From: Rhynchocyon petersi
Lineage: Eukaryota
Reading direction: 5' to 3'
Assembly (NCBI GenBank): GCA_043290085.1
Contig: CM091797.1
Coordinates: 22,174,880 to 22,238,879, forward strand
DNA length: 64,000 nt
Shown: positions 59,101-64,000 of the stretch, piece by piece
Layout: every line of letters begins with the position of its first letter
Numbering within the stretch: the stretch's first letter is position 1
Position numbers: made by a program

Positions 59101-62100
59101 AGCCTGGCTTTCTGGAAGTTCTCTTTCAATGTACTGCTCCAGTCGTTTTTGGATAACCCTCAAAAGAACCTTGCTTGCATGTGATATTAGTGATATAGTT
59201 CGGTAATTTCCACATTCTTTGGGATCGCCTCTTTTCAGGATTGGGACAAACACGGATCTTTTCCAGTCAGTTGGCCAGGTGGTTGTCCTCCAAATTTCTT
59301 GGCACAGCGTGGTAAGCACATTTAGGGCTACATCCGTCTGTTGAAACAGATCTATAGGTATGCCATCAATGCCAGGGGCCTTGTTTTTAGCCAATGTCCT
59401 CAGCGCTGCTTCCACTTCCTCCCTCGTTACTGTTGGTTCCTGCTCATAGTCTACTTCCTGAAATACTTCCATGTCATTCAGATCCTTTTGGTATAGTGAC
59501 TCTGTGTATTCTTTCCATCTTCTTTTGATGCTCCTTGGGTCATTCAGTATCTTGCCAGAAATGTCTTTCAATAGTGCTACTCGAGGCTTGAACTTGTTCT
59601 TCAGCTCCTTCAACTTGAGAAATACTGAACGGGTTCTTCCCTTTTTATTTTCCAGCTCCATTTCTTTGCACATTTCATTGTAGTACCTTGCCTTGTCTTC
59701 ACGAGCGGCCCTTTGAAACCTTCCATTCAGAGCTCTTACATCCTCTTGTCTTCCCCTTGCTTTGGCTTCTCGTCGCTCGATTGCAATCTTCAGAGTTTGT
59801 TCTGACATCCACTTAGGTCTCCTTTTCCGTCGTTGTCTTTGTAAAGATCTTTTGCTTTCTTCATGGATGATATTCTTTATATCTTCCCACAGCTCCTCTG
59901 GTCTTCGTTCCGTAGTGTTCAGTGCCTCAAACCTATTTCTGAGGTGGTCTTTGAATTCTGGTGGGATAGCCTGAAGGTCATATTTTGGCTGTTGTGGAAC
60001 AATTTTGGTTTTCTTTGGCTTTAGCCTGAATTTGCACAGGAGAAGTTGATGATCTGTTCCACAGTCAGCTCCTGGCCTCGTCTTGACTGCTGCTACTGAG
60101 CTTCTCCACCTGTGTCTTCCACATATATAGTCAATCTGGTTCCTGTGCAGCCCATCAGGTGCTTTCCAAGTGTATAATCTACGTTTGTGCCTTTTGAAGA
60201 AGGTGTTTGCAATGAATAAATCATTTATTGTGCAGAATTCAACCATTCTATCTCCAGCTTCATTTCTATCACCAAGCCCATACTTTCCAACTACCATTCC
60301 TTCCTCTTTATTTCCAACTTTTGCATTCCAGTCGCCAATTATGAGTAGTGCATCTTGATTGCAGGTTTGGTCGACTTCAGCCTGCAGGAGTTGGTAGAAT
60401 TCCTCAATTTCTTCATTTCTGGCCTTAGTTGTGGGTGCATACACTTGGATTATGGTTGTATTGACAGGTTTTCCTTGTATGCGTATGCTTAATATTCTAT
60501 CATTCACAGCGCTGTACTTCAAGATTGACTTTGAAATTGGTTTTTTGACAATAAATGCAACCCCATTTTGTCTTGACTCTTCATTCCCAGAATAATAGAT
60601 CATGTGATTGTCTGAATCAAAGTGGCCAGTGCCAGTCCATCTCAGTTCACTGATTCCTAGAATGTCAATCCCTATCCGCTCCATTTCATTTTTTACAACC
60701 TCCAGCTTTCCTGTATTCATGCTTCGTACATTCCAGGTTCCAATCTTTATTGGGTGCTTGTTGTACTTCCCCATATTCTTTCCCCTCTGTTACACCTAGA
60801 AGAGTTCTACTCTAGTTCATAGGGTTTCCAAAGGCCTCTTATTTTGGAAGTGGATGGCCGATCCTTCTTCCTGATTTGTCATACAACCTACTAAAGACTA
60901 ACATACACTGCTGCACTCCCCTAGCAAATCCTCAATAATTCTCAATTATGTCTTAATAATGGCGCTCTGCATATGCCCCATTTCCCAATAAAATTCAAAC
61001 GAAATATTATTCATATATAACTGTCCATTATTTCTTTTCAAGGGAATATACAAGATAATTCTTTCATATTTTTAAAATTTTATATTTCCCTATGTGAATT
61101 TTTCTAAGTTTGCCGATTTGTAAAGACCCAGGTTTTGAGAGAGTATGTATACATATCAGAGTAGTCTTCTATGCTATATATCTTCAGTACCTGGTAGTAG
61201 TATCCTATTAGTAGTTGATCAGATCTTCATTGGCATTTACAGTTCGCAAGTGTCACAGGTCATTGACCCACAATTCTTCTTGCAGTCTATATTTTCCGTC
61301 CTCCAGAACAGGTTCATACGAACAGGTGATCGAACAGCCATTATTAAGACATAATTGAGAATTATTGAGGATTTGCTAGGGGAGTGCAGCAGTGTATGTT
61401 AGTCTTTAGTAGGTTGTATGACAAATCAGGAAGAAGGATCGGCCATCCACTTCCAAAATAAGAGGCCTTTGGAAACCCTATGAACTAGAGTAGAACTCTT
61501 CTAGGTGTAACAGAGGGGAAAGAATATGGGGAAGTACAACAAGCACCCAATAAAGATTGGAACCTGGAATGTACGAAGCATGAATACAGGAAAGCTGGAG
61601 GTTGTAAAAAATGAAATGGAGCGGATAGGGATTGACATTCTAGGAATCAGTGAACTGAGATGGACTGGCACTGGCCACTTTGATTCAGACAATCACATGA
61701 TCTATTATTCTGGGAATGAAGAGTCAAGACAAAATGGGGTTGCATTTATTGTCAAAAAACCAATTTCAAAGTCAATCTTGAAGTACAGTGCTGTGAATGA
61801 CAGAATATTAAGCATACGCATACAAGGAAAGCCTGTCAATACAACCATAATCCAAGTGTATGCACCCACAACTAAGGCCAGAAATGAAGAAATTGAGGAA
61901 TTCTACCAACTCCTGCAGGCTGAAGTCGACCAAACCTGCAATCAAGATGCACTACTCATAATTGGCGACTGGAATGCAAAAGTTGGAAATAAAGAGGAAG
62001 GAATGGTAGTTGGAAAGTATGGGCTTGGTGATAGAAATGAAGCTGGAGATAGAATGGTTGAATTCTGCACAATAAATGATTTATTCATTGCAAACACCTT

Positions 62101-64000
62101 CTTCAAAAGGCACAAACGTAGATTATACACTTGGAAAGCACCTGATGGGCTGCACAGGAACCAGATTGACTATATATGTGGAAGGCACAGGTGGAGAAGC
62201 TCAGTAGCAAAGGCATGTTATTAGGAATGACCAAATGCTGAAGAAGGGCACCCTGCATAGAAAAGCAGGCCCTTATAGAGATGGTTTGACACACTGACTA
62301 CAGCAATGGGCTAAGCTCAGCAGAGATTTTATGGATGGCCTAGAACTGCGCGTGTACCGTCGAGTCGTGAACGACTCATAGTGACCCTCCCGAGGGTTTC
62401 CGGAGACGGTATCTCACACAGAAGTAGAAACCACTCTTTCTCCCGCGGAGCAGCTGGCAGGTTTGAACCGCATGCCTTTGGGCTTGCAGCGTAGCTCTTT
62501 CACCACTAGGCCATACCAGCTGCGCAGTTTCATGATGTTGTTCACTTGTACCTAAAGCCTGTGACTCAGCCCACACTCATCAACAGCAAACAACGACGGG
62601 AAATCGGCTGGCTGGCTGTGGGTTTGGGTTTGGTTGTAGGGACACTAACGTGTCTGAAAGATGGACAATGAATAAGGATAATAAAAGAAGAATTGATGCC
62701 TTTGAGCTGTGGTGTTAGAGAAGAGTGCTCAATATCCCATGGATGGCCAAAAGAACAACTAATGGGCCCTGGAGTCCAACCAGAATGCTCCAAGGATGGT
62801 GAAACTTCGGCTCACATACTTTGGACATGTCGTTAGGAGAGGCCAGTCCCTGGAAAGGGACATCATGCTTGGAAAGGTGGAGCGTCAGAGAAGAGGCAGA
62901 CCTACAACTAGATAGATGGACACAGTGACTGCAGCGATGGGTTCAAGTGTGTCAGGGATGGGGAGGATGGCGAAGGATGGAGTGATTTTCAGCTCTGCTA
63001 TTCATAGGGTTCTCTAAACACCAGCCGGGAGCCCAGGTTGCATCCTGTCTCCATACCTATTCAACCTGTATGCAGAGCAGATTATCCGGGAGGCGGGACT
63101 CTACGAGGAGGAGCGTGGAATTAGAATTGGAGGAAGATGCATCAACAACTTGCGATACGCAGATGACACAACCTTGCTTGCTGAGAGTGAAGATGACTTG
63201 AAGGCTCTGCTGCATAAAATTAAGGAGTGCAGCCTACAGTATGGATTGAAGCTGAATCTCAGGAAAACCAAGATCCTTGCTACTGGGCCAATAGGGGATG
63301 TCATAGTGGATGGGGAGAGGATTGAAAATGTCAAGGATTTCATACTGCTTGGATCCACAGTCAACACCCTTGGCACTAGCAGCCAGGAGGTCAGGAGACG
63401 TATCACATTGGCAAAGGCTGCAGTTAGAGACCTCGCCAAGGTCCTGAGGAGTAAGGGTATCAGTTTGAAGACAAAGGTGCGTCTGATCCAAACTATGGTC
63501 TTCTCAATCACTACCCATGCATCCGAGAGTTGGACAATGACTAAGGACGACAGACGAAGAATTGATGCCTTTGAGCTGTGGTGTTGGAGAAGAGTTCTCA
63601 ATATCCCATGGATGGCCAAGAAAACGAATAAGTATGTTCTGGAGAGGATCCAGCCGGAGTGCTCCCTGGAGGCAAGGGTGGTGAAGCTCCGCCTCACGTA
63701 TTTCGGACATGTTGCCAGGAGAGACCGGTCCCTGGAGAGGGACATCATGTTTGGAAAGGTGGAAGGTAGGAGAGGAAGGGGTAGACCCTCGACTAGATGG
63801 ATGGATACGGTTGCTGCAGTGATGGGCGTGCGTGTGTCGAAGATGGTGAGGATGGCTCAGGATAGGGCGCAATTCAGGTCTGCTGTTCATGGGGTCGCTA
63901 TGAGTCGTCTTCGACTCGACGGCACATAACAACAACAACAATTCATAGGGTTGCTATGAAGTGTACTCGACTCGCTGGCACCTAACAAGAACAACAACAA

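What the first reader, a model, noticed from the sequence alone, without database searches (positions are those of the whole stretch)
60090..62210. Perfect head-to-head inverted repeat of the RTE 5' region around an ERV-derived 375-bp spacer
Two copies of the RTE 5' end (about 870 bp each, including the first 228 codons of the ORF) face each other with apparently 100% identity, judged from identical translated ORFs. The spacer is an inverted, ~93-95% similar copy of the provirus family's internal 3' end that stops exactly at the PPT/LTR boundary. Arm B is not a full element: after codon 228 it jumps to an old RTE tail. This could be two very recent full-length RTE insertions into a pre-existing ERV fragment, a fold-back (template-switch) inverted duplication, or a chimeric junction. 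A palindrome of this size is also a candidate assembly artefact or a fragile, hairpin-forming site.
Basis: seen in the sequence. Interest (0 to 1): 0.7.

Follow-up and report, generated by a model that had tools for sequence, protein, structure and literature searches.

The report
Fold-back RTE retrotransposon insertion with ERV filler
The palindrome is real but not perfect, and it is most likely the scar of one botched RTE retrotransposon insertion that copied a piece of an endogenous retrovirus and then part of itself backwards before sealing into the chromosome; this is a rare form of a known process, not a new kind of element.

Summary
The inverted repeat exists at the stated coordinates: arms 60091-60963 and 61337-62209, 873 nt each, with 373 nt between them. 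It is not perfect. The arms match at 869 of 873 positions, and the four differences are all third-codon synonymous transitions.

Arm A is the 5' end of an intact full-length RTE on the minus strand (949-aa EN+RT ORF). The spacer is a sense-oriented copy of the 3' internal end of a betaretrovirus-like ERV, about 97% identical to the provirus 4.5 kb away. It shares 7 nt (GCCATTA) with the start of arm B.

The block 57915-62210 (RTE, spacer and arm B) is flanked by a perfect 12-bp target-site duplication, AGGCATGTTATT. Removing it and an older RTE fragment that used the same site restores one old RTE tail in frame.

So this is one target-primed reverse transcription event, not two insertions. The cDNA reached the RTE 5' end, picked up ERV sequence, and gained an inverted copy of its first 873 nt by snap-back or twin priming. 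It then joined the target. Which of the two made arm B is unresolved.

This is a natural RTE-clade example of 5'-junction aberrations already known for L1 and R2. Interest is modest.

The parts
56803..57010 (+). Left half of the old host RTE tail (RTE-O), lying between the provirus and the insertion site
   Evidence: blastx to the RTE-A protein, aa 811-877. It is continuous in frame with 62223 onward once 57023-62222 is removed.
57011..57022 (+). Target-site copy 1, AGGCATGTTATT (left flank of the older fragment RTE-C)
   Evidence: There are exactly 3 occurrences of this 12-mer in the window, against 0.03 expected. Context shown.
57023..57902 (-). RTE-C, an older 5'-truncated RTE fragment of another subfamily, inserted at the same target site
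   Evidence: tblastn aa 660-927, 75% identity, no frameshift. It has a (CAA)n tail next to copy 1.
57903..57914 (+). Target-site copy 2, the TSD at the 3' tail of the full-length RTE
   Evidence: Other RTE tails in the window end in (CAA)n without this sequence, so it is target rather than element.
57915..60963 (-). RTE-A, a full-length RTE (3049 nt) with an intact 949-aa ORF (57925-60774) and a (CAA)n tail
   Evidence: ORF and translation. Pfam Exo_endo_phos and RVT_1. Homologues carry the same domains.
60091..60963 (-). Arm A, the first 873 nt of RTE-A
60927..60948 (-). 22-mer in arm A resembling ERV U3 nt 6-27 (its twin in arm B is at 61352-61373)
   Evidence: 20/22 match to 56492, 48872 and 28985. 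Local alignment score 34, against a maximum of 33 in 500 shuffles.
60964..60966 (.). 3-nt filler (GCT on the + strand) between the inner end of arm A and the ERV piece
   Evidence: Alignment.
60967..61343 (-). ERV-derived piece. It has the same sense as RTE-A, corresponds to provirus 56114-56491, and ends 5 nt into U3
   Evidence: 97.1% identity over 378 columns. It carries TGCAG like the solo LTR, not TGTAG like the local provirus.
61337..61343 (.). 7-nt microhomology (GCCATTA) shared by the ERV piece and the start of arm B. It is complementary to 60957-60963
61337..62209 (+). Arm B, an inverted copy of RTE nt 1-873. It has a 5' UTR and a truncated 232-aa ORF (61526-62224) but no 3' part
62210..62210 (.). 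1-nt filler (A) between arm B and the target
62211..62222 (+). Target-site copy 3, the TSD at the far end of the composite insertion
62223..62351 (+). Right half of the old host RTE tail (RTE-O)
   Evidence: blastx continues in frame from ...GHVI to RND....
56114..56491 (+). Homologous segment of the neighbouring provirus (48867-56796). It is a family relative of the spacer but probably not its template

Best explanation
The palindrome is the product of one aberrant target-primed reverse transcription (TPRT) event of a young RTE-clade LINE. The proposed steps are as follows.

1. The RTE endonuclease nicked an old RTE tail after ...AGGCATGTTATT. This site had also been used by another RTE.
2. 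The nick primed cDNA synthesis on the (CAA)n tail, and the whole 3049-nt RNA was copied.
3. The cDNA did not join the target at the RNA 5' end. Instead it continued on a sense-strand transcript of a betaretrovirus-like ERV for about 375 nt ('extra template'; 3 filler nt at the junction).
4. Its 3' end, GCCATTA, then paired with TAATGGC 373 nt upstream. Either this was pairing with the same cDNA (snap-back), or with the 3' end of a second cDNA primed from the other target end (twin priming).
5. This produced an inverted copy of the first 873 nt.
6. The end joined the upstream target with 1 filler nt, leaving a 12-bp target-site duplication.

Shown directly: the anatomy, the TSD, the restored host sequence and the microhomology. 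Inferred: the order of the template switches, the RNA nature of the ERV template, and snap-back versus twin priming. I lean slightly towards snap-back.

The structure has no demonstrated function. It is a potential hairpin-forming site.
For: - The 12-mer AGGCATGTTATT occurs exactly three times in 64 kb (0.03 expected). The sites are the left flank of RTE-C, the 3' tail of RTE-A and the outer end of arm B.
- Deleting 57023-62222 gives a single blastx HSP to RTE aa 811-894 that runs through the junction in frame.
- Other RTE tails in the window end in (CAA)n without this 12-mer, so it is target sequence.
- Read in the RTE sense, the TSD is AATAACATGCCT: 12 bp and starting with A. This matches the reported RTE-clade pattern of 10-12 bp TSDs, a first nucleotide A and (CAA)n tails (PMC6007223).
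- Arm B has no 3' part or tail.
- The ERV piece has the same sense as RTE-A, as expected for a template jump from the RNA 5' end.
- There is a 7-nt microhomology at the ERV/arm B junction.
- The ERV piece diverges significantly more from the local provirus than the arms do from each other (11/378 versus 4/873, Fisher p=7e-4). It also shares the TGCAG variant with a solo LTR. Its template was therefore probably another family member rather than nearby DNA.
- Snap-back and extra-template 5' junctions have been observed experimentally for R2 TPRT (PMC11371274, PMC11331408). Twin priming and fold-backs are known for L1 (PMC2912911, PMC11702581).
Against: - There are no reads, no orthologous empty site and no other genomic copies of this RTE or ERV to compare. 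The databases hold nothing closer than 65% and 56% protein identity.
- All four arm differences are third-codon synonymous transitions (p about 0.01 under neutrality), and three cluster within 43 nt. A self-copy followed by random mutation does not predict this.
- The canonical 5' end of this RTE subfamily is unknown.
- Arm nt 16-37 resemble U3 nt 6-27. The ERV is therefore collinear across the 'junction' apart from 18 nt, which the simple template-jump picture does not explain.
- There is no microhomology at the arm B/target junction.
- A provirus of the same family lies only 0.5-1.4 kb from the target, which is either coincidence or a hint of local templating.
Confidence: 0.72

Rival explanations
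1. This is a variant within the single-event model: twin priming on a second RTE transcript. The 12-nt 3' overhang of the other target end primed reverse transcription at nt 873 of a second, slightly different RTE RNA and ran to that RNA's 5' end. The two cDNAs then annealed through the 7-nt GCCATTA/TAATGGC match and each was completed on the other.
For: - Both arms end at the same nucleotide, as expected if that nucleotide is the RNA 5' end.
- The 7-nt microhomology lies exactly at that end.
- All four arm differences are synonymous third-position changes, and three are clustered. This is expected for two functional source copies but not for random decay.
- The twin-priming model includes annealing of two cDNAs at short complementarity (PMC2912911).
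Against: - Classical twin priming uses one RNA and yields adjacent, non-overlapping segments. Here the direct segment is full length and 873 nt are duplicated.
- There is no microhomology between the target overhang and RTE nt 873.
- If arm nt 1-37 are ERV-derived rather than canonical RTE sequence, arm B must be a copy of arm A and cannot come from an independent RTE RNA.
Confidence: 0.3
2. The ERV-RTE junction, or the whole composite, was inherited rather than made here. In this reading the template was a chimeric read-through transcript (5' transduction) from a source RTE sitting inside an ERV LTR. Alternatively, the young RTE subfamily carries an ERV-derived leader as its normal 5' UTR. 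In either case only the inverted arm arose at this site, or nothing did.
For: - The ERV is collinear from 56114-equivalent through the PPT and U3 nt 1-5, and, after an 18-nt insertion, through U3 nt 6-27 inside the arm.
- The old RTE copy at 15379-18416 shares no sequence with arm nt 1 to about 55.
- The spacer's divergence from the local provirus (about 2.7%) is similar to the divergence between RTE-A and another young RTE copy (2.4%).
Against: - The inner boundary of the arms falls within 3 nt of the point where ERV homology breaks. That looks like a real junction rather than an inherited indel.
- No second example exists in the window.
- This reading cannot be tested with the available collections.
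Confidence: 0.15
3. A later DNA-level rearrangement followed a normal RTE insertion. In this reading, replication fork template switching (FoSTeS/MMBIR) or break repair copied two nearby segments in inverted orientation into the RTE 5' junction. The two segments would be provirus 56114-56491 and RTE 60091-60963.
For: - Both inserted pieces have inverted homologues within 5 kb on the same strand.
- One junction carries a 7-nt microhomology and the others carry short fillers.
- Snap-back onto nearby target DNA is known for R2, and L1-associated fold-backs after resection are known.
Against: - The ERV piece differs from the local provirus at 11 of 378 positions, while the arms differ at 4 of 873 and the provirus LTRs at 1 of 310.
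- The ERV piece carries TGCAG as in the solo LTR, not the local TGTAG.
- The inserted block sits exactly between RTE nt 1 and the intact TSD, which a later random break would rarely achieve.
Confidence: 0.07
4. Two independent, very recent full-length RTE insertions landed head to head in a pre-existing ERV fragment. A deletion then removed the 3' 2.2 kb of the second element.
For: - Both arms start at the same nucleotide and encode identical protein.
- The four differences look like variation between active copies.
- This target site was demonstrably used more than once by RTEs.
Against: - Arm B has no tail and no TSD of its own.
- Its truncated end abuts the TSD that belongs to RTE-A.
- The ERV fragment has no host flanks, and the host RTE tail is continuous without it.
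- A TPRT start in the orientation of arm B would need a nick on the other strand at a site with no (GTT)-type match.
Confidence: 0.03
5. Assembly artefact: a chimeric fold-back long read or a mis-join created the palindrome.
For: Palindromes of this size are a known failure mode of long-read libraries, and no reads are available here.
Against: - The arms differ by four transitions and no indels.
- The centre holds a foreign, oriented ERV piece.
- The boundaries coincide with a 12-bp TSD, a (CAA)n tail and a 7-nt microhomology. This is a coherent biological signature that an artefact would not reproduce.
Confidence: 0.03

Closest known systems
Snap-back and 'extra template' 5' junctions of R2 target-primed reverse transcription (PRINT experiments; PMC11371274, PMC11331408)
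   Same: After a full-length cDNA is made, its 3' end primes further synthesis on the cDNA itself, giving antisense element sequence fused upstream. Alternatively it copies a second RNA before joining the target. Both features are present here.
   Different: Those are engineered R2 insertions in human cells, read as short junctions. This is a natural, germline-fixed RTE-clade insertion that carries both aberrations in series: an 873-nt inverted arm and a 375-nt ERV filler.
L1 twin priming / 5'-inverted L1 insertions (Ostertag and Kazazian model, as summarised in PMC2912911)
   Same: A single TSD pair flanks an insertion whose 5' part is inverted, with microhomology at the internal junction.
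   Different: The direct segment here is full length. The inverted segment duplicates 873 nt rather than continuing the element. A foreign sequence sits at the inversion junction. There is no microhomology at the internal priming site. The element belongs to the RTE clade, not L1.
LINE-mediated chimeric retrocopies made by template switching (U6-L1 and similar; PMC4476161, PMC13174262)
   Same: A second transcript lies in the same sense orientation and is fused to the 5' end of a LINE copy inside one TSD pair.
   Different: The partner is an ERV transcript segment ending near the PPT/U3 border. It is followed by an inverted self-copy.
L1-associated fold-back junctions in cancer and cell models (PMC11702581)
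   Same: Self-annealing of an extended cDNA 3' end forms a hairpin-like inverted structure.
   Different: Those produce chromosome-scale fold-back rearrangements. Here the fold-back is confined within a TSD-flanked 4.3-kb insertion.

Membership tests
RTE-clade LINE (identity of the arms and RTE-A) | Single ORF with an N-terminal AP-type endonuclease and a reverse transcriptase | tested here: met
   Pfam Exo_endo_phos (aa 12-242) and RVT_1 (aa 516-734) in the 949-aa ORF. The top homologues carry PF03372, PF14529 and PF00078.
RTE-clade LINE (identity of the arms and RTE-A) | No poly-A; a short microsatellite 3' tail, (CAA)n in animal RTEs | tested here: met
   ...GATGGCACATAACAACAACAACAA at the 3' end. 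Other copies in the window end the same way. The pattern is described in PMC6007223.
RTE-clade LINE (identity of the arms and RTE-A) | TSD mostly 10-12 bp, with first nucleotide A | tested here: met
   AATAACATGCCT in the RTE sense, 12 bp (PMC6007223).
Single TPRT insertion | One pair of identical target-site duplications flanks the whole block, and the host sequence is continuous without it | tested here: met
   12/12 identical copies at 57903-57914 and 62211-62222. A blastx HSP runs in frame across the restored junction.
Snap-back 5' junction | Reverse-complemented sequence of the element's own cDNA lies between the element's 5' end and the upstream target | tested here: met
   Arm B is the reverse complement of 60091-60963 and is joined to the TSD.
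Snap-back 5' junction | The arms were identical at birth, so later differences should be random with respect to codon position | tested here: inconclusive
   Only 4 differences, but all are synonymous third positions (p about 0.01) and 3 lie within 43 nt.
Twin priming (5'-inverted LINE) | Microhomology at the junction where the two cDNAs anneal | tested here: met
   7 nt, GCCATTA.
Twin priming (5'-inverted LINE) | Inverted and direct segments are neighbouring, essentially non-overlapping parts of one RNA | tested here: not met
   The direct segment is full length, and all 873 nt of the inverted segment are duplicated.
Twin priming (5'-inverted LINE) | Microhomology between the target overhang and the internal priming site | tested here: not met
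   0 nt of microhomology and a 1-nt filler at 62210.
Template-jump chimera ('extra template') | The second sequence is in the same sense orientation and directly upstream of the LINE's true 5' terminus, with few extra nucleotides | tested here: inconclusive
   The orientation and the 3-nt filler fit. However, the canonical 5' terminus of this subfamily is unknown, and arm nt 16-37 look U3-derived.
Template-jump chimera ('extra template') | The template came from elsewhere (RNA), not from adjacent DNA | tested here: met
   Divergence from the local provirus is 11/378, against 4/873 between the arms (p=7e-4). The TGCAG variant is shared with the solo LTR. The RNA nature of the template is itself inferred.
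Two independent RTE insertions | Each element has its own 3' tail and its own TSD | tested here: not met
   Arm B lacks a 3' part, a tail and a TSD of its own.
Betaretrovirus-like (class II) ERV (source family of the spacer) | gag with two zinc knuckles, a pro ORF with dUTPase, pol with RT-RNaseH-IN, and a 6-bp TSD | tested here: met
   Pfam hits. TSD CCATAG at 48861-48866 and 56797-56802. The nearest pol relatives are IAP/SRV-like at no more than 56% identity.
Assembly artefact | Junctions unsupported by independent reads | not testable with these tools
   No reads or alternative assemblies are available. Exact-protein look-ups found no other record of this locus.

The most novel reading that the evidence does not exclude
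Three different RNAs were stitched together in one TPRT event: two slightly different transcripts of an active RTE subfamily, which would explain the synonymous-only arm differences, and an ERV transcript. In addition, the youngest RTE subfamily itself carries ERV U3-derived sequence at its 5' end. That would mean it recently recruited retroviral sequence into its 5' UTR, and that this shared homology guided the switch to ERV RNA. As a by-product, any read-through transcript would fold into an 873-bp double-stranded RNA against the RTE endonuclease region, a possible small-RNA source.
Probability: 0.12. Interest if true: 0.55.

Novelty: new member of a known kind. Interest (0 to 1): 0.35.

Why it matters
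It is a clean, datable natural record of what an RTE-clade reverse transcriptase does when 5'-end joining fails. The arms are 0.46% diverged, the RTE ORF is intact and the TSD is perfect. The steps recorded are template jumping to a retroviral RNA followed by inverted self-copying. These steps are otherwise documented mainly for L1 in tumours and for engineered R2 systems. It also shows that this host has, or very recently had, an active RTE and an active betaretrovirus-like ERV. For annotation, the locus should be called one insertion, not two RTEs plus an ERV fragment. It is a long inverted repeat that may be unstable or hard to assemble.

Tried and rejected
- Exact-protein look-ups of the 232-aa and 949-aa ORFs found nothing on record.
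- Homology searches with the RTE ORF and the ERV pol found nothing closer than 65% and 56% identity. No other copies of either family could be fetched to define the canonical RTE 5' end or the spacer's source.
- The nearest RTE locus (L002) shares the tail motif but has no alignable 5' UTR.
- Two metagenome scans and one genome scan with RTE 5' patterns gave nothing, or one unrelated distant RTE.
- DNA-level blastn of the restored host RTE against other old copies gave only fragmentary, roughly collinear HSPs. The continuity argument therefore rests on the in-frame blastx HSP.
- The old full-length-ish RTE at 15379-18416 runs into a TA/CA microsatellite where the young 5' end begins, so it does not define the terminus.
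- Local provirus DNA or RNA as the template for the spacer was considered because of its proximity. It was rejected on divergence and on the TGCAG variant.
- Error-prone copying was considered as an explanation for the transversion-rich spacer differences (7 tv : 3 ts). It was dropped because the arms, made in the same event, are clean.
- One literature query failed on a term that was too short.
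Full report
**Observation**

A repeat scan of 59000-64000 finds one inverted pair, 60091-60963 and 61337-62209. Each arm is 873 nt and 373 nt lie between them. A base-by-base comparison gives 869/873 identities. The four differences are all transitions, at 60115/62185, 60469/61831, 60499/61801 and 60511/61789. Homology stops abruptly at both ends.

Arm A is the 5' end of a 949-aa open reading frame on the minus strand (57925-60774). 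Arm B carries the same 189-nt leader and the first 228 codons, followed by four foreign codons and a stop. The two translations are identical. All four differences are synonymous third-codon positions. The ORF has an AP-type endonuclease domain and a reverse transcriptase domain. Its database relatives are RTE/BovB-like proteins, none closer than 65%.

The repeat is therefore real and correctly placed, but it is 99.54% identical rather than perfect.

**The spacer**

Positions 60967-61343 match 56491-56114 in inverted orientation at 97.1%. A global alignment gives 10 substitutions and one 1-nt gap.

That segment is the last 373 nt of the internal region of a provirus at 48867-56796, plus 5 nt of U3. 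The provirus has these features:
- its LTRs are identical at 309 of 310 positions;
- it has a 6-bp TSD, CCATAG;
- its gag, pro (with dUTPase) and pol ORFs are open;
- it has no env ORF.

This makes it a young betaretrovirus-like ERV. Its nearest pol relatives are IAP/SRV-like at no more than 56% identity.

The ERV piece lies in the same sense as the full-length RTE. Read on the minus strand, the order is: antisense RTE nt 873-1, ERV sense ...PPT-TGCAG, AGC, then RTE sense nt 1-3049. At the arm B side, the ERV and the RTE share 7 nt (GCCATTA, 61337-61343). This sequence is the reverse complement of the last 7 nt of arm A (60957-60963).

**The decisive anatomy**

The 12-mer AGGCATGTTATT occurs exactly three times in the window, all on the + strand, at 57011, 57903 and 62211. 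The expected number is 0.03.
- Copy 2 directly abuts the (CAA)n tail of the full-length RTE.
- Copy 3 follows the outer end of arm B after a single A.
- Copy 1 abuts the tail of an older, 5'-truncated RTE fragment of another subfamily, RTE-C (57023-57902).

Other RTE tails in the window end in (CAA)n without this sequence, so the 12-mer is target and not element.

Joining 56797-57022 to 62223 onward gives a single blastx alignment to RTE residues 811-894. It runs through the junction in frame (...HYRHVI|RNDQ...). An old RTE tail was therefore hit twice at the same site. The block 57915-62210, comprising the full-length RTE, the ERV piece and arm B, is bounded by one perfect 12-bp TSD.

Read in the RTE sense, the TSD is AATAACATGCCT. 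It is 12 bp long and starts with A, next to a (CAA)n tail. This is the pattern reported for animal RTE-clade LINEs (PMC6007223).

**Interpretation**

The whole palindrome behaves as one TPRT insertion. The proposed sequence of steps is:
1. a nick after ...GTTATT;
2. priming on the (CAA)n tail;
3. synthesis of a full-length cDNA;
4. continuation on an ERV template after 3 extra nucleotides;
5. formation of the inverted 873-nt arm through the 7-nt microhomology;
6. joining to the other target end with 1 filler nucleotide.

All of these steps have precedents. 'Snap-back' and 'extra template' 5' junctions, including snap-backs after full-length cDNA, were catalogued for R2 proteins (PMC11371274, PMC11331408). 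Twin priming with annealing of two cDNAs at short complementarity is the accepted model for 5'-inverted L1s (PMC2912911). cDNA self-annealing fold-backs occur with L1 (PMC11702581).

**Where the ERV piece came from**

A provirus of the same family lies only 0.5-1.4 kb from the target site. I therefore considered snap-back onto nearby single-stranded DNA, or use of a local transcript. Two findings argue against this:
- The spacer differs from the local provirus at 11 of 378 positions, against 4 of 873 between the arms and 1 of 310 between the LTRs (Fisher p=7e-4 against the arms).
- Its U3 start reads TGCAG, as in the solo LTR at 28980. The local provirus reads TGTAG.

The template was therefore another family member, most simply an ERV transcript. 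The family occupies about 13% of this window, so proximity is not a strong coincidence here.

**What remains unresolved**

Two observations pull in opposite directions.

The first concerns the collinearity of the ERV. Arm nt 16-37 (TAATTGAGAATTATTGAGGATT) match U3 nt 6-27 at 20 of 22 positions. The ERV is therefore collinear from 56114-equivalent to U3 nt 27, except for 18 nt (AGCGCCATTATTAAGACA) that contain the arm boundary. These 18 nt occur nowhere else in the window. Two readings follow:
- If arm nt 1-37 are not canonical RTE sequence, arm B must be a copy of arm A (snap-back), or the template was a pre-formed ERV-RTE chimeric RNA.
- If they are canonical, the subfamily's 5' end contains ERV-derived sequence.

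The second concerns the arm differences. All four are synonymous third-position transitions (p about 0.01). Three lie within 43 nt, where arm B carries the state seen in the old RTE copy. This pattern fits two different functional RTE transcripts, as in twin priming on a second RNA, or a later gene-conversion patch. It fits random decay of a self-copy less well.

The only other RTE 5' region in the window runs into a microsatellite and does not settle where the terminus lies. No other copies could be retrieved from any collection.

My estimate is about 0.72 for the single-event model as a whole. Within it, I give a slight edge to snap-back over twin priming.

**Rejected readings**

- Two independent insertions plus a deletion. 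This requires the deletion to end exactly at the TSD of the other element. It also requires an ERV fragment that has no host flanks.
- A later replication-based inverted duplication. This requires an insertion exactly between RTE nt 1 and its TSD, and a near-identical local template, which is not observed.
- An assembly artefact. This would not produce a TSD, a foreign oriented filler, microhomology and four transitions without indels. Only reads can exclude it, however.

**Age and consequences (inference)**

The evidence for a recent event is the 0.46% arm divergence, the 0.32% LTR divergence, the perfect TSD and the intact 949-codon ORF. At typical mammalian neutral rates this is of the order of 1-2 million years. 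It is a lower bound if the arms homogenise by gene conversion.

The RTE tail motif GGGTCGCTATGAGTCG...GACTCGATGGCAC and the abundant RTE-tailed SINEs resemble afrotherian RTE1/AfroSINE from memory. The host was not identified.

The locus is an 873-bp-arm inverted repeat with a 373-nt loop. It could extrude as a hairpin or, if transcribed through, form long double-stranded RNA. Nothing here shows that it does.

**Verdict**

This is an ordinary process caught in an unusually complete and legible form. It is a new, natural RTE-clade example of known TPRT 5'-junction aberrations, and interest is modest.

Noticed in passing
57915-60963 (-): Full-length RTE with an uninterrupted 949-aa EN+RT ORF and a (CAA)n tail, so it is potentially still active. 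Another young 5'-truncated copy of the same subfamily lies at 35562-36235 (97.6% identical).
   Followed up: partly
48867-56796 (+): Very young betaretrovirus-like provirus. Its LTRs are identical at 309/310 positions, its TSD is CCATAG, and its gag, pro-dUTPase and pol ORFs are open. There is no env ORF longer than 73 aa in 54130-56486, which is an IAP-like env-less layout.
   Followed up: partly
28980-29294 (+): Solo LTR of the same ERV family (about 96.8% identical to the proviral LTR) with a 6-bp TSD, CCAGTC. It shares the TGCAG start with the spacer.
   Followed up: partly
57011-57022, 57903-57914, 62211-62222: The same 12-bp target in an old RTE tail was used twice by RTEs of different subfamilies (RTE-C and the composite). 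Other back-to-back RTE tails occur at 62644-63011/63036-63926 and 63892-63990. This suggests strong site or tail-directed re-insertion.
   Followed up: partly
60927-60948 and 61352-61373; compare 56492-56513: RTE leader nt 16-37 match ERV U3 nt 6-27 at 20 of 22 positions, directly continuing the point where the spacer's ERV homology stops, apart from an 18-nt interruption. The origin is unexplained: either the RTE 5' UTR captured ERV sequence, or the ERV source copy carries an 18-nt insertion.
   Followed up: partly
60967-61343 versus 56114-56491: Substitutions between the spacer and the local provirus are transversion-rich (7 tv : 3 ts). By contrast, solo LTR versus LTR gives 8 ts : 2 tv, and the arms give 4 ts : 0 tv. 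Unexplained.
   Followed up: no
61526-62224 (+): Arm B keeps the RTE leader and an open 232-aa ORF that encodes only the endonuclease domain (Pfam Exo_endo_phos, aa 12-227). It could in principle express a truncated endonuclease.
   Followed up: no
62352-62523, 11211-11377, 17764-17935, 31780-31950, 33815-33975, 34172-34341, 39016-39196, 35416-35561: A SINE of about 170 bp with an RTE-like tail, GGGTCACTATGAGTCGTTCACGACTCGACGGTACAC(CAC)n. At least 8 copies are 90-94% alike. One interrupts the old RTE at 17769-17934.
   Followed up: no
6424-12725 and 41602-47732 (+): Two LINE copies of about 6 kb, 96-97% identical, with ORFs of 353, 767 and 495 aa in the second copy. They show only 25% RT similarity to the RTE, so they are probably L1. 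Not checked.
   Followed up: no
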